Below, piece by piece: positions 1 through 38,390 of a DNA stretch of 64,000 bases. The notes below the pieces were generated by a model that had not been told where the DNA came from, searched no databases, and worked only from the letters and a program-made list of their open reading frames with translations. Numbering within the stretch: position 1 is the stretch's first letter; every line of letters starts with the position of its first letter. The position numbers and the translations under genes were made by a program. Source of the stretch: Bacillota bacterium (GTDB lineage: Bacteria; Bacillota; Limnochordia; Darwinibacteriales; DTU012); contig DURM01000007.1 of the NCBI GenBank assembly GCA_012837335.1, forward strand, positions 31,127 through 95,126. The letters are read 5' to 3'.

Positions 1-801
1 GCCGAAAGCACCGTCTGGTTTCCCGAATGCATTGATGATTATAACAGCTGGGGACCGCTGAAATATGATCCGGAAAATTACTGGTGGCAGCGGCATCGGC
101 AGGCAATTGCTAGAGCTGTGGAGCTGGCTCAGGGTGAATTTTTGGTCAATATCCCTGATCTGATTGAAAATCTCGATATTCTAGCTGCTATGCGCGGCGC
201 CCAGAATCTCTGCTTTGATTTGATTGATCAGCCGGATATAGTGAAGGAATACCTGGATCAGCTGGATGATTTGTATTTTAAATATTACCATCCCCTCTAT
301 GAGCTGGTAAAAACACCCGATGGGGGCAGCAGTTACACTGTCTTCTCAATCTGGGGTCCGGGCAGGATTGCAAAAGTTCAGTGCGATTTTTCGGCATTGA
401 TTTCCCCCGCTCATTTCCGGGAATTTGCCCTGCCTTCTTTAAGAAAGCAGTGTCAGAATCTCGACTATTCGCTCTATCATCTTGATGGACCGGATGCGGT
501 GAAGCATGTAGAAGCGGTGATGGAGATTGAAGAACTGAATGCGCTGCAGTGGACACCTGGAGCAGGCCAGCCCGATGGGGGCAGTGAGCAGTGGTACCCG
601 ATTTATGATCAGGCTGTCGCTGCTGGAAAATCGCTGTGGATTATCTTTTCATCGCAAAACAGTTTTGCTGATTTGGTCCGGGGAGCTGATCGATTGGTGC
701 AGCGGTATGGTTCAGAAAAGCTGTATCTCCTCTTCCCGGTGATGTCGGAAAAAGAAGCGGAAGAGCTGATGGAAATAGCGGAGCGGGATTGGACTAAATA
801 G
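1..801 (+). CDS. URO-D (uroporphyrinogen decarboxylase/MtaA-like) family protein, C-terminal portion; 5' end lies off the window
   Basis: Frame 1 is open from nt 1 (AESTVWFPECIDDYNSWGPL...) to TAG at 799-801, so the ORF-track start at 118 (GTG) is internal. Motifs TVFSIWGPG, LYHLDGPD and LQWTPGAGQ resemble the C-terminal half of URO-D/MtaA-fold enzymes. It is a paralog of the CDS at 22780-23925. Confidence 0.45.
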   Translation, partial: AESTVWFPECIDDYNSWGPLKYDPENYWWQRHRQAIARAVELAQGEFLVNIPDLIENLDILAAMRGAQNLCFDLIDQPDIVKEYLDQLDDLYFKYYHPLYELVKTPDGGSSYTVFSIWGPGRIAKVQCDFSALISPAHFREFALPSLRKQCQNLDYSLYHLDGPDAVKHVEAVMEIEELNALQWTPGAGQPDGGSEQWYPIYDQAVAAGKSLWIIFSSQNSFADLVRGADRLVQRYGSEKLYLLFPVMSEKEAEELMEIAERDWTK

Positions 802-821: not shown

Positions 822-2117
822 GTGAGCTTTATTGGCGTGATTGCCGATGATTTAACCGGCGCCATGGATGCTGGGATGCAGATGCTCACAGCAAATCTAA
901 CTGTGCACACCGCCCTTCTGCCGCAAAACCTTAACCAGGTTAGGGCCGGGGCAGATGTGGTCGTAGTCAATACCCAGAGCCGCAATATCGAACCGGATGC
1001 TGCGTATCGGGCGGTGAAGACCGCGTTTCAAAATTTACAAAGCGCGGGCTGCGCAGGTTTTTATAAAAAAATCGATTCTACGCTGAGAGGCAATGTGGGG
1101 GCGGAGCTTAGAGCAGCCTTGGATTCCGCGCTGTTTGACATGATCTTAGTTGCTCCCGCCCTGCCTTTCAATAAGCGGACCACAAGAAATGGAATTCACT
1201 ACGTGGATGGGGTGCCCCTTGCGGAAACTGAGCTGGCGCAGGATCCTTTTGCGCCAATTCAAGATTCGGAGATCAGCCGGATTATCCGGACTCAATATGA
1301 AACAGACACCGGTCTGGTAGCCCTGGATGATGTGCACAGAGGGGCAGAGCGAGTGAGCCAGGTTATGGAAGAATACGCCAAGGCCGGGATCAAGCTGATT
1401 ATTGCGGATGCAGCGGCAGAGCAGGATTTAGAAGTGCTGGCAGAAGCAGCCGGCCGCTTAAACCGCAGCGTGCTTTTATGCGGATCGGCGGGCTTGTTTC
1501 AATATTTCAACCGGTTTTATGGCGAAGACTTGATCAGAACGGAAACCCAAATCAAGAACCAGGGATTAAATGGAAATGGGCCGGTGCTGGTGCTTTCCGG
1601 CAGTCCGGCAGCAGCGTCAAAACGGCAGATTGACAGGTTAAGGGACCACCCTGATGTCTGCGTCATCCAGCTAGATATCACCAGGCTTGCAGAAAAGCAG
1701 GATGCGGCAGCGCGGGAAACTGCCCAAAAAGCAGTCCAAAGCCTTAGAGGCGGCAGGCATGTAATCTTAGATGCGGCGGGAACCAGCAAAGCGGAAATCT
1801 ACCGCAGGGCAGCGGGAGATCGGGAGCTGTTAGACCGCCACAGTGCCATGGTTCTGAATCTGATCAGCGAGACCGCGGGAGCAGCTGCTCTGCTTCCCCT
1901 CGCGGGGCTGGTTATCTTCGGTGGTGATACAGCAGTTGCAGCAGCAGGACGGCTGGGAGCAGCTGGTATTGCAATCATAGGTGAGGTTGAACCGTTTATT
2001 CCCCTGGGCAGACTGATCGGCGGCAGCCGCTCCGGCCTGCCGGTTGTTACCAAAGCAGGTGGATTTGGCAGTGATGAGCTGCTGATCAGAGTTTTAAGTA
2101 TTTTAGCGGGAGGTTGA
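822..2117 (+). CDS. Four-carbon acid-sugar kinase, DUF1537 family (OtnK/DtnK/DenK/OiaK-like)
   Basis: GTG start 10 nt after a GAGGGTGA RBS. N-terminus IGVIADDLTGAMDAG is the DUF1537 signature; a C-terminal nucleotide-binding half (ILLPLAGLVIFGGDTA) is present. Stop is 3 nt before the pdxA2-like gene. Confidence 0.7.
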   Translation: MSFIGVIADDLTGAMDAGMQMLTANLTVHTALLPQNLNQVRAGADVVVVNTQSRNIEPDAAYRAVKTAFQNLQSAGCAGFYKKIDSTLRGNVGAELRAALDSALFDMILVAPALPFNKRTTRNGIHYVDGVPLAETELAQDPFAPIQDSEISRIIRTQYETDTGLVALDDVHRGAERVSQVMEEYAKAGIKLIIADAAAEQDLEVLAEAAGRLNRSVLLCGSAGLFQYFNRFYGEDLIRTETQIKNQGLNGNGPVLVLSGSPAAASKRQIDRLRDHPDVCVIQLDITRLAEKQDAAARETAQKAVQSLRGGRHVILDAAGTSKAEIYRRAAGDRELLDRHSAMVLNLISETAGAAALLPLAGLVIFGGDTAVAAAGRLGAAGIAIIGEVEPFIPLGRLIGGSRSGLPVVTKAGGFGSDELLIRVLSILAGG

Positions 2118-2120
2118 GTT

Positions 2121-3134
2121 ATGGATAGACCAATTATTGCAGTCTCAACCGGCGACCCCTCAGGTATCGGGCCGGAGATTTCAATCTCGGCTCTGAAGCA
2201 TCAAGCAATCTATGGGGCCTGTCGGCCTTTTTTAATCGGAGATTTGGCAGTATTCCGCGATCTGGTGCCGGAGGAGTTGGGACTGAATCCGGTGGGACAG
2301 ATCGAGGATATGCGCTTTGAATACGGAACGATCGATCTTTTGGATCTGCAGCTGTTAGCGGAAGCTCCGCCGTTAGGCAGAGTCAACGCCGCAGCGGGCA
2401 ATGCTGCGTTTCACTATGTTAAGCGGGCGATTGAGCTGGCCCTTGCGGGAGTTGTTGATGCTACGGTGACCGGTCCCATCAACAAAGAAGCAATTAACCT
2501 TGCCGGGCACGCATTTGCCGGGCATACCGAGATTTACGCCCATTATACCAAGACCAAAGATTATGCGATGCTGTTAGCCCATGAGCATTTCCGCGTCATT
2601 CATGTTTCGACCCATGTATCGCTGCGGGAAGCCTGTGATTTAGTGACGAAGGAACGGGTGCTGAAGGTGATTAAAATTGCCGACCGCGCCTGCCGGCAGC
2701 TTGGGATTGCCGAGCCTAAAATTGCAGTCGCTGGTTTAAACCCCCATGCCGGGGAAAGCGGAATGTTCGGCCGGGAAGAAATTGAGGAAATCATCCCAGC
2801 GGTGAATGCTGCCAAGGCACTTGGACTGGATGTGGATGGACCGATTCCGCCGGATACCGTGTTTCCGAAGTTAAACGGCAAACTCTATGATATCTGTGTG
2901 TGCATGTACCATGATCAGGGCCATATTCCCACCAAACTGCTGGGCTTCACCTGGAATGAACAGGAAGGGAAATGGAATTCGGTGAGCGGCGTCAATATCA
3001 CGATGGGCCTGCCGATTATCAGGGTTTCGGTTGATCACGGCACTGCTTACGATATAGCCGGCAGGGGGATTGCATCTGAGCGATCGCTGGTAAGCGCCAT
3101 TGAATACGCAGTGCAGCTTGCCAAAAACCGCTAA
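2121..3134 (+). CDS. pdxA2: PdxA-family NAD-dependent dehydrogenase, PdxA2-like (4-phospho-D-threonate/erythronate dehydrogenase type)
   Basis: N-terminus MDRPIIAVSTGDPSGIGPEI and HVSTHVSLREA / AGLNPHAGE motifs are typical of the PdxA family. The PdxA2 assignment rests on the adjacent DUF1537 kinase. Confidence 0.7.
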   Translation: MDRPIIAVSTGDPSGIGPEISISALKHQAIYGACRPFLIGDLAVFRDLVPEELGLNPVGQIEDMRFEYGTIDLLDLQLLAEAPPLGRVNAAAGNAAFHYVKRAIELALAGVVDATVTGPINKEAINLAGHAFAGHTEIYAHYTKTKDYAMLLAHEHFRVIHVSTHVSLREACDLVTKERVLKVIKIADRACRQLGIAEPKIAVAGLNPHAGESGMFGREEIEEIIPAVNAAKALGLDVDGPIPPDTVFPKLNGKLYDICVCMYHDQGHIPTKLLGFTWNEQEGKWNSVSGVNITMGLPIIRVSVDHGTAYDIAGRGIASERSLVSAIEYAVQLAKNR

Positions 3135-3162
3135 CGAAGAAACGCAGAGAGGAGCTGATGGG

Positions 3163-4050
3163 ATGGAGTTGTGCAGAGGGATTATTCCGGCAATTTTAAC
3201 GCCTTTTACAGCCAGCGAGGACATCAATTTTCCTGAACTGCGCCGGCACGTGCGGCGAATGCTGGATGCCGGGGTGCACGGGATTTTCTGCCTGGGTACG
3301 AATGGAGAGTTCTATGCCTTAAGTGAAGAGGAAAAATATCAGGTTGTGGAAGCAGTGGTTGATGAGGTTAATGGACAGGTTCCGGTCTACGCCGGATCGG
3401 GAGAGATCGCAACTCGAACGGTTATCCGGCTCACTAAGCAGTTTCAAAAGTTGGGAGCCGATGCGGTATCGATTGTAACGCCTTATTTTATTAATCCATC
3501 TCAGCATGAGCTGTACCACCATTACCGTCGAATCGCGGAAGCAGTCGATCTCCCCATCATTCTCTACAATATTCCCATGCGGACTCATGTTAATCTAGAA
3601 CCGGAAACAGTGGCAGCTTTAGCAAGAGACTTGACCAATATTGTCGGGATTAAAGATTCCAGCGGTGACCTTCAGCTGACAAAGGCCTATATCGAGCAGT
3701 CCCCTCAAGATTTTGCTGTGATGGGCGGAAACGATGGCCTGATTCTTGATACTCTGCTGCTGGGAGGAACGGGTGCGATTGCCGCAACGGCGAATGTGAT
3801 CCCGGATATTCTCCTCAACATCTACAATGCTTACTCGGCCGGCGATCTGGAAACAGCGCGCAAGTGGCAGGAAAGGGTAGCGCCGCTGCGCCAAGATTTT
3901 AAGCTGGGAACCAGCCCAGGAGTGATCAAGGTGCAGGCCGGGCTGTGCGGTTTTGATGTTGGTCCCAGCCGTGGTCCGATTCGCTATGATGACCCGGAAG
4001 TAATTGCGAGAATCAAAGATAATATCAAGCGGAACTATAATTTGGGATAA
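3163..4050 (+). CDS. DHDPS/NAL-family class I aldolase (DapA-like; dihydrodipicolinate synthase / N-acetylneuraminate lyase family)
   Basis: ATG at 3163 lies 8 nt after GGAG; the ORF-track TTG at 3100 overlaps pdxA2. Motifs GIFCLGTNGEF, TPYF, and the Schiff-base lysine context IVGIKDSSGD are present. Confidence 0.65.
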   Translation: MELCRGIIPAILTPFTASEDINFPELRRHVRRMLDAGVHGIFCLGTNGEFYALSEEEKYQVVEAVVDEVNGQVPVYAGSGEIATRTVIRLTKQFQKLGADAVSIVTPYFINPSQHELYHHYRRIAEAVDLPIILYNIPMRTHVNLEPETVAALARDLTNIVGIKDSSGDLQLTKAYIEQSPQDFAVMGGNDGLILDTLLLGGTGAIAATANVIPDILLNIYNAYSAGDLETARKWQERVAPLRQDFKLGTSPGVIKVQAGLCGFDVGPSRGPIRYDDPEVIARIKDNIKRNYNLG

Positions 4051-4068
4051 CCTTAAAGGAGACCTGAT

Positions 4069-5376
4069 ATGGCTGTAAACCGCTTAACCATTAGTGAAAA
4101 TGGCAGGTTCTTAGCGCAGGATAATGGGCAGCCGTTTTTCTGGCTTGGTGATACCTGCTGGCTGCTGTTCAGCCGGTTGACCTTGGAGGAAGCTGAATAC
4201 TACTTAAGTGTGAGACAGCAGCAGGGTTATAATGTGATCCAGGCGTCTCTGATCCACGGTCTGCCGACACGAAACCGCTATGGGAACCGACCTTTTGTGG
4301 ATCATGACCCAGCGCAGCCGATCCTGCTGGATCATCCCGAAGGATATTGGGAGCATATCGATCGTGTACTTGCGGCAGCGGAAAAAAAGGGCCTGTACAT
4401 GGCCCTGGTACCGATGTGGGGATCGGTTGTCAGATATCAGAAAGCCACCGCAGAGCAGGCTGCGGCCTACGGCACTTGGCTTGCCCAGCGCTATCGCAGC
4501 AGACCGAATATTATCTGGCTTAACGGCGGCGACTGCCGGGGCGATGTTGGTCAAGAGATCTGGGATGCTTTAGGAGAAGCGATTAAAGCTGGCGATCCGA
4601 AGCATTTGATGACCTTTCATCCCCGGGGACGGACCCGATCCTCCATGTGGTTTCATGATCGCAGCTGGCTTGACTTTAATATGTTTCAGTCGGGACACTG
4701 CCGTTACGGCCAAGCTGGTAAGGACGGTATAACTGATCATTTTGCCCAGGACAACTGGCGGTACGTTGAGATCGACTATCAGCTGACACCGACTAAGCCA
4801 ACGATTGATGGGGAACCTTCATATGAAGCTATTCCCCACGGACTTCACGATTTTAACGAACCGCTGTGGCACGCAGCCGATGCGCGGCGATACGCGTATT
4901 GGTCAGTGTTTGCCGGTGCCTTTGGCCACACTTATGGGCACGCTTCAATCATGAAGTTGGCGTTTAAAGATTCTCCCAGCGCGAGTATGTATAAACCGTG
5001 GCAGGAAGCTGTATTTGATGAAGGCGGCACCCAAATGCAGCATTTGAAAAACTTAATTCTTGCTTATCCCTATTGGGAGCGAATCCCTGACCAAGCGGTA
5101 ATTGCAGGTGACGAGGGAGAAAAATACGAGCGTGTTGCAGTTACACGCGGTGCGGACTACTTACTTGCCTATGTTTATACCGGCAGGGAGTTTAGTCTCA
5201 GAATGGGAGTGATCAAAGGCGCCACAGTGCGGGCATTCTGGTATGACCCGCGTACGGGAGTGCGGACGCTGATTGGAGAAATGGAGAATTCCGGAGTGGT
5301 AAGTTTTAACCCTCCGGGCAAACATGAGGATGGCAATGACTGGGTGCTGATTCTCGAATCGGTATCCAGTGCTTAG
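4069..5376 (+). CDS. DUF4038 / glycoside hydrolase family 140-like protein (apiosidase family)
   Basis: FFWLGDTCWLLFSRLTLEEAEYYL, NVIQASLIH, IWLNGGD, FNMFQSGH and RRYAYWSVFAGAFGHTYGH match the DUF4038/GH140 TIM-barrel family. No signal peptide. It is a divergent paralog of 56741-58054. Confidence 0.55.
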   Translation: MAVNRLTISENGRFLAQDNGQPFFWLGDTCWLLFSRLTLEEAEYYLSVRQQQGYNVIQASLIHGLPTRNRYGNRPFVDHDPAQPILLDHPEGYWEHIDRVLAAAEKKGLYMALVPMWGSVVRYQKATAEQAAAYGTWLAQRYRSRPNIIWLNGGDCRGDVGQEIWDALGEAIKAGDPKHLMTFHPRGRTRSSMWFHDRSWLDFNMFQSGHCRYGQAGKDGITDHFAQDNWRYVEIDYQLTPTKPTIDGEPSYEAIPHGLHDFNEPLWHAADARRYAYWSVFAGAFGHTYGHASIMKLAFKDSPSASMYKPWQEAVFDEGGTQMQHLKNLILAYPYWERIPDQAVIAGDEGEKYERVAVTRGADYLLAYVYTGREFSLRMGVIKGATVRAFWYDPRTGVRTLIGEMENSGVVSFNPPGKHEDGNDWVLILESVSSA

Positions 5377-5503: not shown

Positions 5504-5538
5504 GGGAGAGACCCGCGGAAGGGTCTCTCTTTTTTAAA
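5504..5538 (+). terminator. Rho-independent terminator
   Basis: GAGAGACCC-gcggaa-GGGTCTCTC followed by TTTTTT. Confidence 0.7.
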
Positions 5539-5589: not shown

Positions 5590-5618
5590 TTGACTCAACC
5601 AGGTTAATGTAATATAAT
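5590..5618 (+). promoter_or_regulatory. Sigma-A-type promoter (TTGACT-17 nt-TATAAT) for the Yip1/large-protein/ABC operon
   Basis: TTGACT at 5590-5595, a 17-nt spacer, TATAAT at 5613-5618, then a ~130-nt leader. Confidence 0.6.
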
Positions 5619-5753
5619 AATTACAGATGTTAAAGACGGACTAAAATATGTCGTTAAAGTGAAGATAGTGCGTAAGATGTAATGTAAACTGCAGCTGATA
5701 TTTCAGCTGAACTATCCGGGAAGGTGATTTGTGTGCGGTGCAGAGGACTGATA

Positions 5754-18005: not shown

Positions 18006-20018
18006 ATGAAATACGGAGTTTCATACTATCCTGAGCATAAACAGCGAGCTGAGATCGAGCAGGACATTCAATTGATGCAGGAGTTGGGGATCAACTTTGT
18101 CCGCATGGGCGAGTTTGCCTGGTGCAAATTTGAGCCGGTGGAAGGCCAGTATGAATTTGACTGGTTGGATCCGGTTATCGAAGAGCTGGGGCAGCTCGGT
18201 ATCCTGACCATTATCTGCACCCCAACTGCCTGCCCGCCCGCTTGGCTGGTAGAGAAGCACCCGGAGATTCTGTATGTGGATAACCGGGGCATGACCCGGC
18301 CTTTCGGCGGCAGGCGCAGCTACTGCTACAACAACCCGGTTTACCGGGAATATTCTCGGAAAATAGCTGAGGCAATCGGGAAGCATTATCGCGATAATCC
18401 CCATGTCTTTGCTTTTCAAATAGATAACGAATTGGCGCAGGAGGGCACCGGCCGCTGCCGCTGCCCTGTCTGCCGGGATAAGTTTCACGGCTGGCTGGAA
18501 GAAAAATATGGGACCATCGATGAGCTCAACCAGAAGCTGGGCACGATTTTCTGGGGGCAGACCTACGATCATTTCGGCCAGATCAATCCGCCGGTCAATT
18601 CCATCGAGCCCAATACCAACCAGGCAATCACGGCCTTTTTTGAAAACCCATCGCTGCGTTTAGATTTTGAACGGTTCTGCAGTGATTCCAATATCGAGTA
18701 CCAAAATATCCAAACGGAAGCGCTGCGCAAATACACCGATAAAGTCATCACAACCAATGCCACAGGGGTGGCTACTAACAGCATCAATTATTACAAAGCG
18801 TTTCAGGAACTGGATAGATACGCTTTCGATTATTACCCCAGCATCAGAGATCGGGAAGTCGATTCATTTCCCTATGCCCATGCCCGAGGGGTCCGCGGCG
18901 AGCAGTTCTGGCTGATGGAGTTTGTCTCCGGCGGCGGCCATGGTGCTTGGGGCGCAGGAAGGCTCCAGCACTATCCGGGAGCCCTGCAGCAGGCAGCGAT
19001 GCACGCATTTGCTTCCGGCGCTGAGCTGGTTGCCCATTTTCAGTTTCGGACTTTCCCCTTCGGAGCAGAACAGCTGAATTATGCGATTGTGGATATTGAC
19101 GGCATTCCCCGCCGCAAATTCTACGAAGTGCAGGCAGCAGCAGCTGATCTTAAAAAACTGGGAGAGATTCTGAAAAACTCGTCATTTAAGAACGAAGTGG
19201 CTTTATGCTTTGACTATGACGCTTTATGGGCCCTTAAGATTAAACCTGTTGCTAAGGACTTTGATTATGTCAAATTCTGCAGCGAGCTTTATAATGCTTT
19301 TGTCAGCCTTGGCGTCGGTGTGGATGTAGTCAGCTGTGAGGAAGATCTCAGCGGCTATAAGGCGGTGATTGTACCGACCCCGGCGGTGATGGACGGCCGC
19401 TTTAAACAGCGGTTGAAAGACTATGTGAATGCTGGAGGCATTCTGCTGTCCACCTTCCTGGCAGGCATTAAAAACGAGTACAATGTGGGCATTGCTGAAT
19501 CGCTCCCCTGCGGTCTGACCGATTTATTCGGCATCCGAGTTGGCGAAGTGGAGCCGGTCTTTGAGCGCACTGTTTCTCAGATTGCTGTGACTGTTGGTGA
19601 CAAGGAATATCAGGGTGCTAATAAATATTGGACCGAGACCCTAGAGGAAAATGGAGCTGAGATCATTGGTTTTTACGCTGACACCTTCAGGAAAGGTACC
19701 GGCGTGATCAGCAGAAATAATTATGGCAGGGGTCGCGCTTATTATCTCGGTACGGCGCTGGCCAGTGATCTGATGAAAACTTTAGCCCAGCTGATCATTG
19801 CTGACGGGAAAATTACCCAGGTGCCATTTCCGGTACTGCCGGGTGTGGAAGTAATTGTTCGGGAATATGCAGGCCGGAAAGTCTACTGTATCTTCAATTT
19901 CTGCCAGGAAGCAGTCGAGTTTGAACTCGGCGGGACTTACACTGATCTCCTGAACGATGCGGCAGTGGCTAACCTGAAACTTGATGCAAAGAGCTATGCA
20001 TTTATTATGGATAATTGA
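18006..20018 (+). CDS. Beta-galactosidase, glycoside hydrolase family 42
   Basis: ATG at 18006 after AAAAGGAG; the upstream part of the ORF-track ORF overlaps GH29. MKYGVSYYPEH, FAWCKFEPVEG, and the GH42 Cys cluster CRCPVCRD are present. Confidence 0.8.
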   Translation: MKYGVSYYPEHKQRAEIEQDIQLMQELGINFVRMGEFAWCKFEPVEGQYEFDWLDPVIEELGQLGILTIICTPTACPPAWLVEKHPEILYVDNRGMTRPFGGRRSYCYNNPVYREYSRKIAEAIGKHYRDNPHVFAFQIDNELAQEGTGRCRCPVCRDKFHGWLEEKYGTIDELNQKLGTIFWGQTYDHFGQINPPVNSIEPNTNQAITAFFENPSLRLDFERFCSDSNIEYQNIQTEALRKYTDKVITTNATGVATNSINYYKAFQELDRYAFDYYPSIRDREVDSFPYAHARGVRGEQFWLMEFVSGGGHGAWGAGRLQHYPGALQQAAMHAFASGAELVAHFQFRTFPFGAEQLNYAIVDIDGIPRRKFYEVQAAAADLKKLGEILKNSSFKNEVALCFDYDALWALKIKPVAKDFDYVKFCSELYNAFVSLGVGVDVVSCEEDLSGYKAVIVPTPAVMDGRFKQRLKDYVNAGGILLSTFLAGIKNEYNVGIAESLPCGLTDLFGIRVGEVEPVFERTVSQIAVTVGDKEYQGANKYWTETLEENGAEIIGFYADTFRKGTGVISRNNYGRGRAYYLGTALASDLMKTLAQLIIADGKITQVPFPVLPGVEVIVREYAGRKVYCIFNFCQEAVEFELGGTYTDLLNDAAVANLKLDAKSYAFIMDN

Positions 20019-20044
20019 TTCGGTCAGCAAAGGGGGAGAGGGGA

Positions 20045-22759
20045 ATGAAACAAGCAGTTATTCTAACTAGTGCTGAAAAAAACAAGCGGATCGAATTTGG
20101 AATTACTTATCTGGAAACAGCGCTTGCAAGCGCGGGTTATACGATTGAAAGAGGAGTTTTAGATCAAGATTACTACCGCTATCGGGATTTTCCGGGCGAG
20201 AAGATTTACATCGGCTGCAGGGGAACAGATCCCTTTACAGCTTGGCTCGAAGCAGAAGAAATCCTGATTTACCATGGACAGGAACCCCAACGGGAAGGGT
20301 TTTATCTCACTACTTGTCCCGGATTATTAACCGCTGTTGTCGGTGGAGATGATGTTGGGGCGCTGTATGGCTGTTTGGAATTGGCGGAGCGGATTGAAGC
20401 AGCAGGCGGGATTCCCGCTAATCTGGCGTTTTATGATGCTCCTGAGTTTAAACTGAGGGGACCCTGCCTGGGTCTGCAGAAAACCAAGATTGAACCGCCG
20501 CGGCTTACTTATGAGTATCCGATTACTCCGGATCGGTTCCCCTGGTTTTATGATCGGGAAATGTGGTTAAAGCTGCTGGACCGCATGGTTGAGTACCGCT
20601 GCAATGTGCTTTACTTGTGGAGCGGCCATCCCTTTTCCTCCTTGGTTAAGCTCGCGGATTATCCGGAGGCGCTGGAAGTAACGGATGAAGAGTTCGAGCT
20701 CAACCGGGAGATGTTCGGCTGGCTGACCGAAGAGTGCGACCGCCGCGGCATCTGGGTGGTTTTGAAGTTCTACAACATTCACATTCCCCATCCATTTGCG
20801 GTAAAGCACGGCCTGGAGCAGCGGCAGAGCCGAATTCATCCCCTAGTAGCGGATTATACCCGGAAGTCAATTGTTGAATTCATCAAGTCCTTCCCGAGAA
20901 TTGGTTTGATGGTGTGCCTTGGGGAAGCTCTCCGGGGCTATGACAATAAAACGGAGTGGTTTGTGGATACGATCATTCCTGCTGTGAGAGAAGGCATTAA
21001 GGAAGCGGGACTGACAGAAGAGCCGCCGATTATTCTCCGCGCCCACGACTGCGATCCCTTTGCAGCAATTGAGGGAGCGGCGGAGCAGTACTCCAATCTC
21101 TATACGATGTGGAAATACAATGGGGAAAGCCTCACTACTTATTATCAGCGGGGCAATTGGCACAAGCAGCACGCGGCCTTGAGCAAGATGAAATCGACCC
21201 ACATCATCAATGTTCACGTGCTGGCCAACTTGGAGCCGTTTCGCTTTAAAGCTGCCAATTATATTCTTAAATGCATGCAGTCGGCTAAATACCAGCTTGG
21301 CGGCAATGGACTCCATCTTTACCCGCTCTTTTATTGGGATTGGCCCTACGCTCCGGACAAGGCCGAACCGCGTCTTCTGCAGCTGGATCGGGATTGGCTG
21401 TGGTACGAAGCGTGGTTCCGCTACGCGTGGAATCCGGAGCGGAATGAGCAAACAGAAGCTCTCTACTGGACCAAGCGCCTGGCAGAGCACTATGGGTTAG
21501 AACTGGAAAGAGCAGAGCAGCTGCGGCAGGCTGTCGAAAGCGCCGGCCATATTGCTCCAAAGATTTTGGGTCGGATCGGTATTACCGAAGGCAACCGCCA
21601 GACTTTCAGCCTCGGCATGACCATGAGCCAAATCACCAATGTCAACCGCTATGGCCCGAACCGGGAGCTCTGGAATTCAGTCGCCCGTCGGGGCGAGCAG
21701 CCCGATGACTACATCACCAACGAAGTGGCGGGGCAGCCCCATATCGGTGAAACGCCTTATGATACTATCGCAGAAGTAAAAGCCGATGCCAAAATAGCTC
21801 TCGCCAGCATCAACAGCGCTTTAGAAAGTTTAACCAACCCCGATCCGGAGTTGGTGCGGATTAAGACAGATATTGAAGCCCTGTATTATCTCACTGAATT
21901 CTACTGCGCTAAACTGGAAGCGGGAATGCTGATTTTAAAATACAAATACACCATGGACGAGAATTACCAAGGGGATTTTGATCTGCTCGAGCAGGCGGCA
22001 GATTGGATGGCAGAGAGTCTGAAAGCTTACCGCAGAGTGACTGAGCTTACCAAAGATACCTATCTTTATGCCAACAGCCTTCAGACCACCCACCGCAAGA
22101 TTCCTTTCCCCGATGGGGAGCGGTATTACCACTGGTCGCAATGCCTGCCTGAATATGAGCAGGAATATGAGAACTTTGTCCGCAATGCCGCGCGGCTGAA
22201 AGCAGGTGAGCTGCCGCAGTTTGCAGCTGGGGATCAGCCGGTGAAAAAGCTTCCGGAAGCAGAATTTGAGCTGTTAAGTCCGGAGTGGGAACTGTGCCCG
22301 GTGCGGATTGGCAGCAGGTTGTTTAAGGATGGACGGGAGATAATCCAGGCGGTTATTCCGCCCCTGGACGGCATGACCGGCATCCGCCTAAGCCACGCAG
22401 CCTGCCGCAGTAAAGGGGCAGAAATTAAGCTGGAGTTGAAAGAAGACAGCCAGATCTTAATTGGATATATCAAGGACCAGGATCAGAAGTGGCTGCAGGC
22501 GCCGAAACTGGAAACCAATGCTCACGCAGATGATCGGGGCGGATTTAAAGTCCAGTTCGGCAATGCGGTGCTCGCTTCTGACTGCCCGGCTGTCGATATT
22601 CATGCCCTGCAGTATGAAAAGGGTGTCCATGAGCTGTACTTAGGTACCGGAAGCTTTCTGGTTATAGGCATTGTGCCAAAAACCGTCAACTTGGCGGATG
22701 CAGCCGGCAAGTATGCCAAAGATGGTCCGGAAACCTTAGATTGGCTGTACACAGAATAG
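20045..22759 (+). CDS. Large cytoplasmic putative glycoside hydrolase (904 aa) with GH20/67/84/89/115-clan-like N-terminal lid domain; family unassigned
   Basis: ATG at 20045 after AAAGGGGGAGAGGGGA. The N-terminal GH67N/GH20b-like stretch LLTAVVGGDDVGALYGCLELAERIE is followed by a probable TIM-barrel core (VLYLWSGHPF, LMVCLGEA). No signal peptide. Confidence 0.35.
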   Translation: MKQAVILTSAEKNKRIEFGITYLETALASAGYTIERGVLDQDYYRYRDFPGEKIYIGCRGTDPFTAWLEAEEILIYHGQEPQREGFYLTTCPGLLTAVVGGDDVGALYGCLELAERIEAAGGIPANLAFYDAPEFKLRGPCLGLQKTKIEPPRLTYEYPITPDRFPWFYDREMWLKLLDRMVEYRCNVLYLWSGHPFSSLVKLADYPEALEVTDEEFELNREMFGWLTEECDRRGIWVVLKFYNIHIPHPFAVKHGLEQRQSRIHPLVADYTRKSIVEFIKSFPRIGLMVCLGEALRGYDNKTEWFVDTIIPAVREGIKEAGLTEEPPIILRAHDCDPFAAIEGAAEQYSNLYTMWKYNGESLTTYYQRGNWHKQHAALSKMKSTHIINVHVLANLEPFRFKAANYILKCMQSAKYQLGGNGLHLYPLFYWDWPYAPDKAEPRLLQLDRDWLWYEAWFRYAWNPERNEQTEALYWTKRLAEHYGLELERAEQLRQAVESAGHIAPKILGRIGITEGNRQTFSLGMTMSQITNVNRYGPNRELWNSVARRGEQPDDYITNEVAGQPHIGETPYDTIAEVKADAKIALASINSALESLTNPDPELVRIKTDIEALYYLTEFYCAKLEAGMLILKYKYTMDENYQGDFDLLEQAADWMAESLKAYRRVTELTKDTYLYANSLQTTHRKIPFPDGERYYHWSQCLPEYEQEYENFVRNAARLKAGELPQFAAGDQPVKKLPEAEFELLSPEWELCPVRIGSRLFKDGREIIQAVIPPLDGMTGIRLSHAACRSKGAEIKLELKEDSQILIGYIKDQDQKWLQAPKLETNAHADDRGGFKVQFGNAVLASDCPAVDIHALQYEKGVHELYLGTGSFLVIGIVPKTVNLADAAGKYAKDGPETLDWLYTE

Positions 22760-23925: not shown

Positions 23926-23948
23926 GAATGGTGATGGAGGAAAAGAAG

Positions 23949-26165
23949 ATGGTTGATCTAAAGATGGTGAAAGTAACGGCCGGCGAGTATAAGCGGGGTG
24001 GCGGTGATCTGAAAGACAGACCAGATGCGCTGCCTCGCCACAAGGTAACCCTTACCAGCGATTTTGCGATCTCGCAGGAGCCGATTAAATACGACTTGTT
24101 TGCGCACTTTTATCTGGAAAGGTACGGTGAAAAGCCGGATGTAGAGAACTATATGGGTTATGTGATTGGGGTCAGCTGGTATGAGGCGGATGAATTCTGC
24201 CGCTGGCTGACGGAAAAAACCGGTGAGTTCTACCGTCTGCCGACAGAAGCAGAGTGGGAGTACTGTGCACGAAACAGCCGCAAATTAGGCCTTGACCGGA
24301 TGTGCGACCTGCATCTGCGGGAGTGGTGTTTTGATTGGTACGATGTCTACTCGGAAGAGGATCAGATTGATCCCGCAGGGCCCGATGGAGGCATGTTTAA
24401 AGTTGTCAGGGGCGGATTTTTAGACAATCCGGAGCGGTTTAATACTTACCACACCGAAGTGTGGATGCGGGCGTCGATGGCGCCGAACTACCGCCACTAC
24501 CCAGATGATATCCACAATGATTTTGGGCGCCACAATATTGGTTTCCGCGTGATCAAGGGACAACCTGCCGTGACCAACGGCAGGCAGGTTACTGCCCCCC
24601 TCAGTCTGCATGTAAAAGAAAACCCGCCGATGGGTAAAATCCGCGGGGATGTTCCTTATTTCCGCAAGCGGTTCTTATTTCCGATTCCGCCGGATACCGC
24701 TTCGTCCGAAGCGATTCGAGCATTCGGCTTAAATCCGCTGCTGCGGCACCACAACCATTCTCCGGGATTTGATGTGGCGCCAAATGGTGATTTGATCGTA
24801 TCTTTTTACTCATCCTACTGGGAATACGACGCAGAGGTGGGGCTGATTGCCGCAAGGCTCCGGTATGGTGCCGATGAGTGGGAGCTTCCGGATATCTTCG
24901 TGAATCCCGTGGCAGTTAATGACCATGCGCCCCTCTTGTTTACTGATTCTGATGGCACCATCTACCATTTCTGGGGCTGGCCGGAGCTGGAAAATGCGTT
25001 TCCGTTCCAGTTCATCTACTCTAAAGACAGCGGCGCAACCTGGAGTGAAGTGCAGTTTCCCAAGTTTAAGGAGAAGGCGGAGCAGGTGATGCGCCAGCCG
25101 ATTAACACTGTCGTGCACGCCCAGGACGGTTTTTATTACCTAGCCTGTGATGTGCGGGGCGAGTCCGCTTCGGTTTTGTACCGTTCCAAAGATTTGCTTA
25201 ACTGGGAAGTGCCTCAGGGCAAGACTCCAGGCCGACACAGCACAGTAGTGGAGTTACAAGATGGGCGGCTGTTGGCTGTGGGTGGAAAAAACACTGCTAT
25301 TGATGGCTATATGCCCCAAGGTATCTCCGGGGATCGGGGCGATACCTGGGAAGTGAGTAAAACTCCCTTTCCCGCCATGTCTTCGGGGCAGAGACCCTGC
25401 ATCATTAGGCTTCAGAGCGGACGGCTGTTTATGTGCGGAGATTTCCAGAACAAACAGGGTCAAAGACCCCGGGAAGCAGGCCCCGACGAGTGGGGTTCCT
25501 ACGCTGCTTATTCTGAGGACGAAGGAAAAACTTGGAAGTTTAAGAAATTATGGGGTACCCAGCACAAGAAGCAGGATGCCAACCAGTTAGGCGGGTCCCA
25601 CACCATAGGATATGCGGTCTGCCGCCAGTCGCCGGATGGACTGATTCACATTATTACTTCCAACAACCGCCCCAGTCTCCACCTCTGCTTTAATGAAGCC
25701 TGGCTGTTGGACGATGCGGAACCGACCATTCCTGATGATCAGGAACTGATGTACGAGCGGGCAGCCAAACTGCGGGATGTGGAGACTTATACGGAAAAAT
25801 ACGAAAACGGACAGGTTAAGTGTGTCTATTCCGGCGGATTTGCTGAGGACGGGCGTTTTCTCCTCCATGGTGAAGAAAGATGGTATTATCCGTCCGGACA
25901 GCTGATGACCGAGTGCACTTATGAGTATGGGGTCAGGAAAAACCGCTATGTCCACTATTCTGAGTTGGGAGATAAAATCTGGGAATGGGAGTATCTAAAG
26001 GACAATACAGCTGTCTATAAAACTTATTATTCCAATAACCAGCTGAAGACTGTGGGCCGCTACCGCAGCCGCATTGCGGAAGGCTGGAGCGAGACCTATT
26101 CTCCTGAAGGTAAGGTAACTGCTAGATTCTTATTTGATAACGGCAGGATTATTAAAAACGAGTAA
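23949..26165 (+). CDS. Three-domain protein: FGE/SUMF1-like domain + BNR/sialidase-like beta-propeller + C-terminal MORN-variant repeats
   Basis: ATG at 23949 lies 8 nt after GGAGG. FGE-family core [15 protein letters not shown]...RGGF...NIGFRV. BNR/Asp-box motifs [16 protein letters not shown] and SEDEGKTW. C-terminal YwqK/MORN_2-like repeats in WYYPSGQL...[16 protein letters not shown]...FDNGRI. No signal peptide. Confidence 0.5.
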
Positions 26166-26176: not shown

Positions 26177-27253
26177 ATGACAGATAAGCTGACTCTAGGT
26201 GTATTGGGTTTGGGGGAAGGCAGAAGCATTATTTCTGCCTGCCTCCAGAGTGAGATGTGGGAATTGGGCAATATCTGCGATATTAATGAAGAGATGTGCC
26301 GAGAGCGGGCAGAGGAGTTTGGACTTACCAAATACACAACCTCGTATCAGGACATGCTGCGGGATCCAGAAATAGATGTAATCGGAATTTACACTCCCGA
26401 CCAGCTTCACGCTGCCCATATTAAGCTGGCACTCGAAGCGGGAAAACATGTGATCTGCACCAAACCCCTGATTGTGGATTTAAGCCAAGCCAAGGAGCTG
26501 TTGGAAGTGCAGAAGCGGACCGGGAAGGCGGTCTTTGTGGGTCAGAGCTCCCGCTATTTTGAGCCGATGGTGCGGCAGCGCCAGGATTATCTGGCGGGTA
26601 AGCACGGTGAGCTTGTAACAATTGAGACCCACTATATCAGTGATTCCCGCTGGTTTCTCCAGAAAAGCTGGAGCCATCAGTCCGGATTCTCGTGGCTGTA
26701 CAATTTTATGAACCACGCGGTTGACTTGGCCGCTTGGTATCTGCCGGATGTGGAGGAAGTTTACGCGGTGGGAGTAGTCAGCGCCAACACCAAAGAATGG
26801 AAGCTGACAGTACCGGATACCATTAAAGCGGTTTTGAAGAGCACTAGCGGCATCTGCGCCAGCGCAGCCGGCGTTTATGCGGCGCCAACTCTGGGCAGCG
26901 CGGTGGAGCAGTCCATCAGCTGCACTCTCAGAGGCACGAAGGGAATCAGCCGCGCTGGATACCCAAAGCTTCAGTATTACACCAATTTCCCTCCGGTGAA
27001 GAAAACGGCAGAACTGCACACCTACGACGAAATGCATGGCTATTACTTCCGGTTTGAAGCGGAGACTCACCACGCGGGAGAATACCAGAATTATATTGAA
27101 GAATTTGCCTCCTGTCTCTTTCAGGGCAAAACACCAAAGCCGGATCTGGAGGAAGGGATTCGGACGATTGCGGTGCTGGAAGCAATCGATGAGTCGATGC
27201 GGACCGGAAAAGTTGTGAAAGTAGATGAAGTGCTGGCAAAATATCTTGGCTGA
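26177..27253 (+). CDS. Gfo/Idh/MocA-family NAD(P)-dependent oxidoreductase
   Basis: LGVLGLGEGRS Rossmann N-terminus, and GKHVICTKPL (EKP-type motif). Confidence 0.7.
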   Translation: MTDKLTLGVLGLGEGRSIISACLQSEMWELGNICDINEEMCRERAEEFGLTKYTTSYQDMLRDPEIDVIGIYTPDQLHAAHIKLALEAGKHVICTKPLIVDLSQAKELLEVQKRTGKAVFVGQSSRYFEPMVRQRQDYLAGKHGELVTIETHYISDSRWFLQKSWSHQSGFSWLYNFMNHAVDLAAWYLPDVEEVYAVGVVSANTKEWKLTVPDTIKAVLKSTSGICASAAGVYAAPTLGSAVEQSISCTLRGTKGISRAGYPKLQYYTNFPPVKKTAELHTYDEMHGYYFRFEAETHHAGEYQNYIEEFASCLFQGKTPKPDLEEGIRTIAVLEAIDESMRTGKVVKVDEVLAKYLG

Positions 27254-38321: not shown

Positions 38322-38390
38322 GAAATACTGCAGGAAACGCAGTCGCAAAGCCGAATAACATTGGCGAGCATAATTACAGGAGGGCAGATT

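What the first reader, a model, noticed from the sequence alone, without database searches (positions are those of the whole stretch)
822..5376. DUF1537 acid-sugar kinase + PdxA2 + DHDPS-family aldolase next to a GH140-like (apiosidase-family) hydrolase: candidate unassigned acid-sugar route
DUF1537 kinases with PdxA2 are established (Zhang et al. 2016) as the two-enzyme route that converts D-threonate or D-erythronate to DHAP + CO2. DUF1537 kinases also act in D-apiose catabolism (OiaK). Here the pair is tightly linked (3-nt spacing) to a class I DHDPS/NAL-family aldolase and a GH140-family enzyme; GH140 is the family of the RG-II apiosidase. It is flanked upstream by a URO-D-like gene. Genomic coupling of an apiosidase-family hydrolase to a 4-carbon or branched acid-sugar kinase pathway plus a lyase is not a described pathway. 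It could be a salvage route for branched or short acid sugars (apiose or aceric-acid derived, or Kdo/Dha-like keto-acids via the lyase) released from pectic side chains.
Basis: partly seen in the sequence, partly recalled or inferred. Interest (0 to 1): 0.6.

Follow-up and report, generated by a model that had tools for sequence, protein, structure and literature searches.

The report
Candidate Dha (pectin sugar) breakdown operon
Three tightly packed genes (an acid-sugar kinase, a PdxA2 dehydrogenase and a DapA-like aldolase) inside a bacterial locus for digesting the complex pectin rhamnogalacturonan-II most likely break down the rare plant sugar acid Dha to pyruvate, DHAP and CO2, a route that appears never to have been described.

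Summary
They form the end of one operon in a large intracellular RG-II-degrading locus of an uncultured Limnochordia-like Bacillota.

The GH140 adjacency is not conserved in relatives, so the proposed apiose coupling is not supported. The kinase–PdxA2–aldolase trio is conserved. It recurs next to sialidase-fold hydrolases (GH143-like or a BNR_2 type) and a GH121/GH142-like beta-L-arabinofuranosidase-fold enzyme. In 46 other species representatives, 41 of them Burkholderiaceae, it also sits with an iron alcohol dehydrogenase, and the three such loci I annotated carry an acid or solute transporter.

My reading is that Dha (3-deoxy-D-lyxo-heptulosarate, RG-II side chain D) is cleaved by the DapA-like aldolase to pyruvate and D-threuronate. 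That is reduced to D-threonate, phosphorylated by a DtnK-like kinase, and oxidatively decarboxylated by PdxA2 to DHAP and CO2. The stereochemistry predicts D-threonate, which is the known DtnK/PdxA2 substrate.

The weak points are that no reductase gene lies in this window and that nothing has been tested biochemically. I found no paper on Dha catabolism. Confidence is about 0.55.

The parts
1..801 (+). 3' part of a 367-aa gene of unknown function, immediately upstream of the kinase in the same operon (possibly a very divergent URO-D/MtaA-like protein)
   Evidence: No Pfam or NCBIfam hit. The full gene is seen on L001:6536-7639. It is conserved upstream of the trio in L005 and L012 at 76% identity. 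hhalign to a PF01208 protein of L104 gives 77% probability, E 2e-5. A single-sequence AF2 model was unusable, pLDDT 46.
822..2117 (+). DUF1537 acid-sugar kinase, DtnK-like; proposed D-threonate 4-kinase
   Evidence: PF07005 + PF17042. Best NCBIfam match is D-threonate kinase at 289 bits (cut-off 450), against OtnK 201 and OiaK 44. Best PDB match is 4xfm at 154 bits.
2121..3134 (+). PdxA2-clade dehydrogenase; proposed 4-phospho-D-threonate oxidative decarboxylase giving DHAP + CO2
   Evidence: PF04166. PDB: 6e85 'D-threonate 4-phosphate dehydrogenase' 297 bits and Salmonella PdxA2 2hi1 295 bits, against E. coli PdxA 190 bits.
3163..4050 (+). DapA-like class I aldolase; proposed Dha aldolase giving pyruvate + D-threuronate
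   Evidence: PF00701. TIGR00674 dapA 235 bits (cut-off 206). Equivalents of K161, Y133, T44 and R138 are kept, but Y107 is Phe and T45 is Asn. Linked to kinase and PdxA2 in 54 of 80 related genome loci.
4069..5376 (+). GH140 family hydrolase (BT1012 apiosidase homologue), no signal peptide, last gene of the operon
   Evidence: PF13204 + PF12904. 3kzs/5msy 484 bits. N-terminus shown. The adjacency is not conserved in L005 or L012.
5504..5531 (+). Intrinsic-terminator-like hairpin (11-bp stem, T run) ending the operon
5590..5618 (+). Near-consensus sigma-70 promoter (TTGACT-17-TATAAT) for the next unit (NHL/Yip1, DUF5696, ABC permeases)
20015..22759 (+). GH138-like alpha-galacturonidase (marker of RG-II chain A)
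   Evidence: NCBIfam NF049878 at 961 bits, E 5e-289.
23928..26165 (+). FGE-sulfatase-domain + BNR_2 sialidase-fold + MORN protein. Its BNR part is the window's closest relative of the BNR2 hydrolase found in the conserved module elsewhere.
   Evidence: Pfam. tblastn of the Burkholderia BNR2 hits 24750-25706 at 25% identity. Its 66%-identical homologue lies two genes upstream of the trio in L023.
26177..27253 (+). GFO/IDH/MocA oxidoreductase. It is the only other oxidoreductase family seen in the window and only a speculative candidate for the missing D-threuronate reductase.
   Evidence: Pfam and NCBIfam. Not conserved next to the trio in relatives.
27268..29094 (+). GH143-like beta-propeller, homologue of the Dha-hydrolase domain of BT1020
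   Evidence: PF24067 at 4e-93. 5mqr residues 22-610, 441 bits, E 9e-131. The function of the BT1020 N-terminal domain is taken from PMC13501991. Adjacent to the trio in L010/L011/L104.
29108..31198 (+). (alpha/alpha)6 hydrolase of GH121/GH142-like fold; proposed beta-L-arabinofuranosidase for Araf-beta-1,5-Dha
   Evidence: PF22422. AF2 model pLDDT 93. Foldseek top hits are HypBA2 GH121 (E 1e-31, TM 0.78) and BT_1020 5mqr (E 6e-25). Adjacent to the trio in L010, L023, L029 and L031.
38361..40673 (+). GH95 (RG-II-type locus member)
   Evidence: Pfam at 2.7e-176.
56741..58054 (+). Second GH140 paralogue
   Evidence: Pfam. 45% identical to the first GH140.

Best explanation
The kinase–PdxA2–aldolase trio is the cytoplasmic catabolic module for Dha (3-deoxy-D-lyxo-hept-2-ulosaric acid), the acidic sugar of RG-II side chain D. 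The proposed steps are:

1. Imported RG-II fragments lose the terminal beta-L-Araf through the GH121/142-like enzyme (29108-31198).
2. Dha is released by a sialidase-fold hydrolase, either the GH143-like protein (27268-29094) or the BNR protein (23928-26165).
3. The DapA-like class I aldolase cleaves Dha between C3 and C4 into pyruvate and D-threuronate (2,3-dihydroxy-4-oxobutanoate).
4. An NAD(P)H-dependent reductase converts D-threuronate to D-threonate. This is an Fe-alcohol dehydrogenase in other lineages and is unassigned in this window.
5. The DUF1537 kinase makes 4-phospho-D-threonate.
6. PdxA2 oxidatively decarboxylates it to DHAP and CO2.

The net reaction is Dha + ATP -> pyruvate + DHAP + CO2, and it is redox-neutral.

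What is shown: the gene families, the operon structure and the conserved gene neighbourhoods. What is inferred: every substrate assignment.
For: (a) The locus is RG-II-type. It has two GH140 genes, a GH143-like gene (441 bits to BT1020), a GH138-like gene (961 bits), GH95 and an upstream GH137-like gene. GH106 occurs in relatives.

(b) The trio is syntenic in relatives at 64-81% aldolase identity. In L010/L011/L104 it lies directly downstream of the GH143-like and GH121/142-like pair.

(c) The (alpha/alpha)6 neighbour is structurally closest to the beta-L-arabinofuranoside-active GH121 enzyme and to BT_1020, not to rhamnosidases. This matches chain D (Araf-Dha) rather than chain C (Rha-Kdo).

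(d) In 46 further species representatives the aldolase, kinase and PdxA2 are co-located with an Fe-ADH and a cytoplasmic BNR_2 sialidase-fold protein. These are 41 Burkholderiaceae, 2 Cohnella, 2 Alkalihalobacillus and bacterium UASB14. A Clostridiaceae MAG (L024) carries the same five genes. The annotated examples also have an SSF or TRAP (carboxylate-type) transporter. That supplies the reductase and the acid-uptake step the model needs.

(e) The nearest named relatives of that Fe-ADH are small-aldehyde and acid-semialdehyde reductases: sulfoacetaldehyde reductase, lactaldehyde reductase and 4-hydroxybutyrate dehydrogenase.

(f) Orthologues of that BNR2 (46-48% identity) sit immediately after the GH121/142-like gene in RG-II-type loci of Paenibacillus konkukensis and Bacillus sp. 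3255.

(g) The kinase's best match is DtnK, and PdxA groups with solved D-threonate-4-phosphate dehydrogenases.

(h) Stereochemistry, from my own derivation using carbohydrate nomenclature: the D-lyxo centres at C4-C6 leave a D-threo C4 fragment, so reduction gives D-threonate. That is the substrate of the only characterised DUF1537/PdxA2 pair.

(i) Chemical logic: DapA's own aldol adduct, 4-hydroxy-2-oxo-6-aminoheptanedioate, is a 7-carbon 2-keto-3-deoxy diacid like Dha. That would explain why a DapA-like enzyme is used. The window protein keeps the Arg138 equivalent, a residue known in DHDPS for binding the substrate carboxylate (established knowledge).

(j) No paper on Dha catabolism was found.
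Against: - No reductase gene of the Fe-ADH type exists in the window or in the fetched DNA of its closest relatives. Step 4 therefore has no assigned gene here.
- In this window the GH143-like gene is 23 kb from the trio.
- Three more distant GH143 homologues have no trio within 10 kb.
- The Arg138 equivalent is Lys in Burkholderiaceae but Leu or Gln in some Paenibacillaceae and Bacillaceae, so a conserved distal-carboxylate site is not demonstrated.
- A rough NJ tree does not resolve trio-linked aldolases as one clade.
- The kinase and PdxA scores lie below NCBIfam's equivalog cut-offs for DtnK and PdxA2.
- One module (L024) sits beside sulfatases and a heparinase-like gene, which hints at non-pectin sources.
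- The specificity of the BNR2 hydrolase is unknown; it shows only about 20-bit similarity to GH33 sialidases.
- There are no enzymology, expression or growth data.
Confidence: 0.55

Rival explanations
1. Two independent salvage functions share an operon. An ordinary D-threonate (or other 4-carbon acid sugar) kinase/PdxA2 pathway sits beside an aldolase for a different keto-deoxy sugar acid of RG-II, namely Kdo, which would give pyruvate + D-arabinose. There is no metabolic hand-over between them.
For: RG-II chain C carries Kdo, and a sialidase-fold Kdo hydrolase is known (PMC13501991). The window has two different sialidase-fold proteins. Some homologues of the (alpha/alpha)6 protein also carry a Bac_rhamnosid6H Pfam hit on record. 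An FGGY kinase and a fucose-isomerase-like gene that could handle a pentose lie at 35437-38321.
Against: It does not explain why the aldolase, an aldehyde-reductase-type Fe-ADH, the kinase and PdxA2 stay contiguous in 46 species representatives from different phyla, with the kinase fused to PdxA in the annotated Paraburkholderia example. D-arabinose is not an acid sugar, so Fe-ADH, DUF1537 and PdxA2 would have no substrate from it. The (alpha/alpha)6 partner resembles beta-L-arabinofuranosidase folds best.
Confidence: 0.13
2. The module degrades a different, perhaps still unknown, glycosidically bound ulosaric or ulosonic acid from algal or bacterial polysaccharides. It is only secondarily recruited into RG-II loci.
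For: L024 places the module beside two sulfatases and a heparinase II/III-like protein. The window's BNR protein carries an FGE-sulfatase domain. The BNR2 family has no characterised member. Papers retrieved place Dha in green-algal extracellular matrix and Tetraselmis material as well; I did not open them.
Against: Most contexts are plant-cell-wall degraders or plant-associated Burkholderiaceae. BNR2 orthologues sit inside RG-II-type loci with GH140, GH95 and GH138-like genes. The need for a C4 acid product fits Dha, which to my knowledge is the only well-known natural ulosaric acid glycoside.
Confidence: 0.12
3. One reading: a salvage route for apiose- or aceric-acid-derived branched or short acid sugars released by the GH140 enzyme, with the kinase acting like OiaK.
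For: GH140 is co-transcribed with the trio in this organism. Upstream genes on the same strand include split transketolases 48% and 36% identical to E. coli AptA and AptB.
Against: GH140 is replaced by other genes in the nearest relatives. The trio occurs widely in loci with no match to the window's GH140. The OiaK model scores 44 bits. No RuBisCO-like protein appeared among the ORFs of at least 150 aa scanned against Pfam. AplK is an FGGY kinase.
Confidence: 0.06
4. These are biosynthetic genes that are merely adjacent: DapA for lysine/diaminopimelate and PdxA for vitamin B6.
For: The aldolase passes the TIGR00674 dapA cut-off and PdxA passes the TIGR00557 cut-off. Public MAG annotations call the homologues DapA.
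Against: The catalytic-triad Tyr107 is Phe and Thr45 is Asn. No dapB was found in any of the 96 loci examined. PdxA is closer to PdxA2 structures. The genes sit in a glycan-degradation operon with conserved synteny.
Confidence: 0.03

Closest known systems
D-threonate catabolic pair DtnK + PdxA2 (Zhang et al. 2016, PNAS 113:E4161; reference cited; content recalled from memory because the paper was not readable here)
   Same: The same two families lie adjacent. The kinase's best model match is DtnK, and the dehydrogenase's best structural relatives are the D-threonate-4-phosphate dehydrogenases 6e85 and 2hi1. The predicted end products are the same: DHAP + CO2.
   Different: Scores fall below the equivalog cut-offs (289 of 450; 337 of 583). 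Here the pair is welded to a DapA-like aldolase, and in other lineages also to an Fe-ADH, a sialidase-fold hydrolase and an acid transporter. D-threonate would therefore be an internal intermediate made from Dha rather than an imported nutrient.
E. coli D-glucarate/galactarate pathway (GarL aldolase, GarR tartronate-semialdehyde reductase, GarK glycerate kinase); established knowledge
   Same: The logic is identical. A 2-keto-3-deoxy-aldarate is split to pyruvate and an acid semialdehyde, which is reduced to a hydroxy acid and then phosphorylated.
   Different: The substrate is one carbon longer (C7 rather than C6). The protein families differ: class I DHDPS-type instead of HpcH-type aldolase, Fe-ADH instead of a beta-hydroxyacid dehydrogenase, and DUF1537 instead of a glycerate kinase. 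An extra decarboxylating step (PdxA2) is needed.
Sialic acid (nan) catabolic clusters: sialidase, SSF/TRAP transporter, NanA lyase, NanK kinase
   Same: The architecture matches: a sialidase-fold hydrolase, an SSF or TRAP acid transporter, a DHDPS-family lyase and a kinase.
   Different: The aldolase is DapA-like rather than NanA-like (NanA models 143-156 bits against dapA 235). The downstream enzymes handle a C4 acid rather than ManNAc.
4-hydroxy-tetrahydrodipicolinate synthase DapA
   Same: The fold is the same, as are the Schiff-base Lys and the Tyr133, Thr44 and Arg138 equivalents. The score is above the TIGR00674 cut-off. DapA's aldol adduct is a 7-carbon 2-keto-3-deoxy diacid like Dha.
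   Different: Only 34% identical to E. coli DapA. Tyr107 is Phe and Thr45 is Asn. There is no dapB nearby, and the gene sits in a catabolic glycan operon.
Bacteroides thetaiotaomicron BT1020 (GH143 Dha-hydrolase + GH142 beta-L-arabinofuranosidase) of the RG-II PUL (PMC13501991; 10.64898/2026.03.13.711244)
   Same: The window has a GH143 homologue (441 bits) followed immediately by an (alpha/alpha)6 enzyme whose fold matches GH121 and BT_1020.
   Different: These are two separate, signal-peptide-less proteins rather than one fused enzyme. The second protein has no sequence-level match to BT1020. No downstream Dha catabolism is mentioned in the B. thetaiotaomicron RG-II papers read here.

Membership tests
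DUF1537 acid-sugar kinase family | Two-domain architecture: SBD_N (PF07005) + NBD_C (PF17042) | tested here: met
   E 3.5e-62 and 3.5e-26.
D-threonate kinase DtnK (equivalog) | Score at or above the NCBIfam NF047819 cut-off (450 bits) | tested here: not met
   288.8 bits. It is still the best of the three kinase models (OtnK 201, OiaK 44).
D-threonate kinase DtnK (equivalog) | ATP-dependent phosphorylation of D-threonate at O4 | not testable with these tools
   Needs an enzyme assay.
3-oxo-isoapionate kinase OiaK (apiose pathway) | Score at or above the NF042436 cut-off (700 bits) | tested here: not met
   44.4 bits.
PdxA2 (D-threonate 4-phosphate dehydrogenase) | PdxA fold, closer to PdxA2 than to biosynthetic PdxA | tested here: met
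   6e85 297 bits and 2hi1 295 bits, against E. coli PdxA 1ps7 190 bits.
PdxA2 (D-threonate 4-phosphate dehydrogenase) | Score at or above the NF002891 cut-off (583 bits) | tested here: not met
   336.7 bits. There is an 11-residue insertion relative to Salmonella PdxA2.
PdxA2 (D-threonate 4-phosphate dehydrogenase) | Gene adjacent to a DUF1537 kinase | tested here: met
   3-nt gap. The two are fused in the annotated Paraburkholderia homologue L091.
DapA / DHDPS (biosynthetic) | Schiff-base Lys161, Tyr133, Thr44 and Arg138 | tested here: met
   K164, Y135, T46 and R140 in the alignment with E. coli DapA.
DapA / DHDPS (biosynthetic) | Catalytic-triad Tyr107 and the GTTGE motif (Thr45) | tested here: not met
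   Phe109 and Asn47, invariant in the 20-sequence clade.
DapA / DHDPS (biosynthetic) | Genomic link to dapB or the lysine pathway; being the only dapA in the genome | tested here: inconclusive
   No dapB within the fetched DNA (up to 10 kb each side) in any of 96 loci. The whole genome of the source organism is not available.
GH140 (apiosidase family) | Homology to the BT1012 catalytic domain | tested here: met
   PF13204 at 9.2e-113; 484 bits to 3kzs/5msy.
GH140 (apiosidase family) | Apiosidase activity on RG-II | not testable with these tools
   Needs an enzyme assay.
GH143 (Dha hydrolase) | Homology to the BT1020 N-terminal beta-propeller | tested here: met
   window 27268-29094: PF24067 at 4e-93; 5mqr residues 22-610 at 441 bits.
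GH142/GH121 beta-L-arabinofuranoside hydrolases | Sequence-level membership | tested here: not met
   No PDB sequence hit for 29108-31198; only PF22422 MGH1-like.
GH142/GH121 beta-L-arabinofuranoside hydrolases | Fold similarity | tested here: met
   Foldseek: 6m5a E 1e-31, TM 0.78; 5mqr E 6e-25. These rank 1 and 2.
RG-II utilisation locus | Co-location of RG-II-specific GH families (GH137-143, GH95, GH106, GH78, GH127) | tested here: met
   GH140 x2, GH143-like, GH138-like and GH95 in the window. A GH137-like gene lies just upstream. GH106 occurs in relatives. GH78, GH127 and GH139 were not seen in the window.

The most novel reading that the evidence does not exclude
A complete and previously undescribed catabolic pathway for the rare plant sugar acid Dha exists and is widespread, in Burkholderiaceae, Paenibacillaceae, Bacillaceae and Limnochordia-like anaerobes. 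It runs from a sialidase-fold Dha hydrolase through a DapA-derived Dha aldolase, an Fe-ADH D-threuronate reductase and DtnK to PdxA2. If true, it would give the D-threonate kinase/PdxA2 pair its physiological substrate source. It would also mean that genes now annotated 'DapA' in these operons are mis-assigned.
Probability: 0.5. Interest if true: 0.75.

Novelty: new variant of a known kind. Interest (0 to 1): 0.66.

Why it matters
RG-II is regarded as the most complex plant glycan, and its depolymerisation is well mapped. The papers I could search say nothing about the fate of its unusual monosaccharide Dha. A 2026 preprint still lists pathways for several secreted RG-II products, including D-Kdo, as unconfirmed.

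The model gives a six-step, redox-balanced route built from identifiable genes, and each step can be assayed. It would do three further things:

- It would explain what the DtnK/PdxA2 D-threonate pathway is for in nature.
- It would define a functional subfamily of DapA-like aldolases that annotation pipelines currently call lysine-biosynthetic.
- It would suggest a substrate for an uncharacterised sialidase-fold family (BNR2).

Tried and rejected
- **Key papers not held.** The three primary papers (Zhang 2016, Carter 2018, Ndeh 2017) could not be read. Their content is taken from citing papers or from memory and is marked as such.
- **AplK as a DUF1537 kinase.** Rejected. The E. coli SE15 aplK locus tag named in PMC13001218 is annotated as an FGGY kinase.
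- **Arg138 equivalent as a conserved distal-carboxylate binder.** It is R or K in most trio-linked aldolases but L or Q in Cohnella, Alkalihalobacillus and Paenibacillus. I do not use it as strong evidence.
- **Monophyly of trio-linked aldolases.** Not resolved in a BLOSUM62 NJ tree.
- **Reverse neighbourhood test.** Starting from three distant GH143 homologues, no trio lay within 10 kb.
- **Fe-ADH in the window.** Searched for in the window and in its nearest relatives. There were no hits better than E 0.7.
- **The (alpha/alpha)6 protein as GH142.** No sequence match; only fold-level similarity.
- **'URO-D-like' label for the upstream gene.** BLAST and hhalign against the window's own URO-D-like gene gave nothing. 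A single-sequence AF2 model had pLDDT 46 and was not searched. The only support is a 77%-probability hhalign match through a third protein.
- **Extending L010 upstream (L104).** No reductase was found.

Full report
**1. The observation**

Window 822-5376 holds four co-directional genes.
- A DUF1537 kinase (PF07005 + PF17042).
- A PdxA-family dehydrogenase that starts 3 nt after the kinase stop codon.
- A DHDPS-family aldolase. Its real start is most likely ATG 3163, as called on identical contigs.
- A GH140 hydrolase.

NCBIfam places the kinase nearest D-threonate kinase: 289 bits, against OtnK 201 and OiaK 44. The aldolase scores just above the dapA cut-off, 235 against 206. The PdxA protein matches solved D-threonate-4-phosphate dehydrogenases (6e85 at 297 bits, Salmonella PdxA2 2hi1 at 295 bits) much better than E. 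coli PdxA at 190 bits. The GH140 protein scores 484 bits against BT1012.

A terminator-like hairpin at 5504-5531 and a near-consensus promoter at 5590-5618 show that GH140 closes the transcription unit.

The upstream gene is cut by the window edge and has no family hit. 'URO-D-like' is only weakly supported.

**2. The setting**

Nearly all genes from position 1 to about 41 kb are on one strand. None of the six hydrolases whose N-termini I inspected shows a signal peptide. The hydrolase set has the signature of rhamnogalacturonan-II degradation:
- two GH140 genes;
- a strong homologue of the GH143 Dha-hydrolase domain of BT1020 (27268-29094; 441 bits, E 9e-131);
- a GH138-like alpha-galacturonidase (20015-22759; 961 bits);
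- GH95, GH2 and GH29;
- just upstream of the window, a GH137-like gene.

Enzyme functions for BT1020, BT1012 and BT1013 are taken from PMC13501991.

A near-identical aldolase (one residue different from the window's) occurs only on metagenome contigs. Relatives at 64-81% identity are annotated Limnochordia or Bacillota MAGs, and one of the contigs is from an anaerobic digester.

**3. What is conserved**

In the nearest relatives the kinase–PdxA2–aldolase trio and the genes upstream of it are syntenic. The gene after the aldolase, however, is a pectate-lyase-fold or GH42-like protein, not GH140. The GH140 link is therefore incidental to RG-II locus membership.

In a second clade (66% identical aldolase; L010/L011/L104) the order is GH106-like, GH143-like, (alpha/alpha)6 hydrolase, kinase, PdxA2, aldolase, GH106, GH95, GH140. 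In L023 the order is BNR/FGE protein, (alpha/alpha)6 hydrolase, then the trio.

I modelled the window's (alpha/alpha)6 protein (29108-31198) and obtained pLDDT 93. Its best PDB fold matches are the GH121 beta-L-arabinobiosidase HypBA2 (E 1e-31, TM 0.78) and then BT_1020 itself (E 6e-25), ahead of GH63 and GH94 enzymes.

The GH143-like and (alpha/alpha)6 pair therefore looks like the two halves of BT1020. BT1020 removes beta-L-Araf and then Dha from RG-II side chain D.

**4. A wider module**

I scanned one genome per species with the aldolase clade and recovered 80 loci. tblastn with the window proteins showed that 54 of them carry the kinase and/or PdxA2 beside the aldolase.

In Paraburkholderia caffeinilytica the operon reads: porin, aldolase, Fe-dependent alcohol dehydrogenase, a DUF1537-PdxA fusion protein, an SSF symporter, a cytoplasmic BNR_2 sialidase-fold protein, and a DeoR regulator.

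Aldolase, kinase, PdxA2, Fe-ADH and BNR2 co-occur in 46 species representatives: 41 Burkholderiaceae, two Cohnella, two Alkalihalobacillus and bacterium UASB14. They also co-occur in a Clostridiaceae MAG.

Alkalihalobacillus deserti adds a TRAP DctPQM transporter, a type known to carry carboxylates. The nearest named relatives of the Fe-ADH are small-aldehyde reductases, including 4-hydroxybutyrate dehydrogenase, which acts on a C4 acid semialdehyde.

BNR2 orthologues (46-48% identity) directly follow the (alpha/alpha)6 gene in RG-II-type loci of Paenibacillus konkukensis and Bacillus sp. 3255. Those loci also hold GH78, GH29, GH138-like, GH95 and GH140 genes.

**5. Mechanism proposed**

Cleaving Dha (HOOC-CO-CH2-(CHOH)3-COOH) at C3-C4 gives pyruvate and a C4 aldehyde-acid.

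By my derivation from carbohydrate nomenclature, the D-lyxo configuration places the C4, C5 and C6 hydroxyls left, left and right in Fischer projection. This parallels Kdo (D-manno), which gives D-arabinose. The fragment is then D-threuronate, and reducing it gives D-threonate.

As I recall the literature, D-threonate is the substrate of the only characterised DUF1537/PdxA2 pair, whose products are DHAP and CO2. The reductase consumes the NADH that PdxA2 regenerates, so the route is redox-neutral.

The logic copies the E. coli glucarate pathway (GarL, GarR, GarK), one carbon longer.

A DapA-like enzyme is a sensible recruit. DapA's own aldol adduct is a 7-carbon 2-keto-3-deoxy diacid.

The window protein keeps the Lys161, Tyr133, Thr44 and Arg138 equivalents. 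It has Phe for Tyr107 and Asn for Thr45, and those two changes are shared by nearly all trio-linked homologues. Relatives without the trio have GSQGE and GRD motifs instead.

**6. Weaknesses**

- No Fe-ADH or other obvious reductase lies in the window or in the DNA fetched for its closest relatives. The only other oxidoreductase family seen in the window is the GFO/IDH/MocA gene at 26177-27253, and it is not conserved with the trio.
- The trio and the GH143-like gene are 23 kb apart here.
- Three distant GH143 homologues lack the trio nearby.
- The Arg138 equivalent is not universal.
- The trio-linked aldolases split into two clades in a crude tree.
- The kinase and PdxA2 fall below their equivalog cut-offs.
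- One module sits beside sulfatases.
- Everything about substrates is inference.

**7. Rivals**

- **Kdo as the aldolase substrate.** This fails to give an acid C4 compound for the Fe-ADH, kinase and PdxA2 steps, and it does not fit the arabinofuranosidase-like partner.
It is undercut by the non-conserved GH140, the 44-bit OiaK score and the FGGY nature of AplK. A separate apiose route may nevertheless exist just upstream, where split transketolases are 48% and 36% identical to E. coli AptA and AptB.
- **A purely biosynthetic DapA/PdxA reading.** This is contradicted by the active-site changes, the PdxA2 affinity and the conserved catabolic context.
- **A different ulosaric or ulosonic acid of non-plant origin.** This remains possible.

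**8. Novelty**

Full-text searches for heptulosaric acid combined with aldolase or threonate, for D-threonate enzymes, and for DUF1537 combined with dihydrodipicolinate or rhamnogalacturonan found no description of Dha catabolism or of this gene module. A 2026 RG-II preprint says nothing about aldolases or the fate of Dha.

The enzyme families are known. What is new is the way they are assembled, the proposed substrate, and the proposed natural origin of D-threonate. I rate it a new variant of a known kind, with interest 0.66 and confidence in the mechanism of about 0.55.

Noticed in passing
L001:1-4615 (DNA immediately upstream of the window start, same strand): Split transketolase genes (the complete pair is 48% and 36% identical to E. 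coli SE15 AptA and AptB), a TAL/FSA-like gene, a small cupin and a GH137-like gene precede the operon. This may be a transketolase-type apiose route, separate from the trio.
   Followed up: partly
window 22741-23925: A URO-D/MtaA-like protein (PF01208 at 4e-10; weak MtaA/CmuA model hits) lies inside the RG-II locus. A clearer PF01208 gene recurs in the related locus L104:2346-3377. It could be involved in demethylating the 2-O-methyl sugars of RG-II in an anaerobe, but that is pure speculation.
   Followed up: partly
window 23928-26165: An unusual fusion of an FGE-sulfatase-like domain, a BNR_2 sialidase-fold domain and a MORN repeat. A 66%-identical homologue lies two genes upstream of the trio in L023.
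   Followed up: partly
window 5724-10753: An NHL-repeat/TPR/Yip1 membrane protein followed by a 944-aa DUF5696 protein (E 5.5e-202) and two ABC permeases. The NHL/Yip1 + DUF5696 pair recurs in L012 and L021. Its role in oligosaccharide uptake or processing is unknown.
   Followed up: no
L091:11930-14428 (Paraburkholderia caffeinilytica chromosome 2): The DUF1537 kinase and PdxA2 are fused into one ORF of about 770-830 aa, a 'Rosetta stone' for their functional coupling. In the other Burkholderiaceae loci the two tblastn matches lie in the same close tandem arrangement, but I did not check whether they are fused.
   Followed up: partly
window 47526-59361: A second sub-locus holds a GH115-like gene, a solute-binding protein with two permeases, a histidine kinase with an AraC-type response regulator, a second GH140 (45% identical to the first) and a GH63/MGH1-like gene.
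   Followed up: no
window 2121-3134: The PdxA2 protein carries an 11-residue insertion (TWNEQEGKWNS) between the conserved LLGF and GVNIT motifs, relative to Salmonella PdxA2 and 6e85.
   Followed up: no
window 3163-4050 and homologues P0002, P0007, P0022 and others: Public records name these proteins '4-hydroxy-tetrahydrodipicolinate synthase', and the protein passes the TIGR00674 cut-off although Tyr107 and Thr45 are replaced. This is probably a systematic mis-annotation.
   Followed up: yes
L014/L015 and L025-L028, L030, L033, L039, L042, L045, L046 and others: A sister group of 'TPYF' DHDPS-family proteins has GSQGE and GRD motifs and no kinase/PdxA2 neighbours (Bathyarchaeia, Anaerolineae, Thermotogae). 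In the one example with gene calls (L014/L015) it sits among sugar-acid genes: MR_MLE, 2-hydroxyacid dehydrogenase, GFO and AP_endonuc_2. Their function is also unassigned.
   Followed up: no
L024:5079-15718 (Clostridiaceae MAG): The aldolase/Fe-ADH/kinase/PdxA2/BNR_2 module lies directly after a heparinase II/III-like gene and two sulfatases. This suggests a sulfated glycan source in that organism.
   Followed up: no
L001:4618-6525 (635-aa gene two genes upstream of the kinase): This gene is conserved with the trio in the Limnochordia-like clade. It has only a sub-threshold hit to the GH127 beta-L-arabinofuranosidase catalytic domain (E 0.006). It may be another RG-II side-chain hydrolase.
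   Followed up: no
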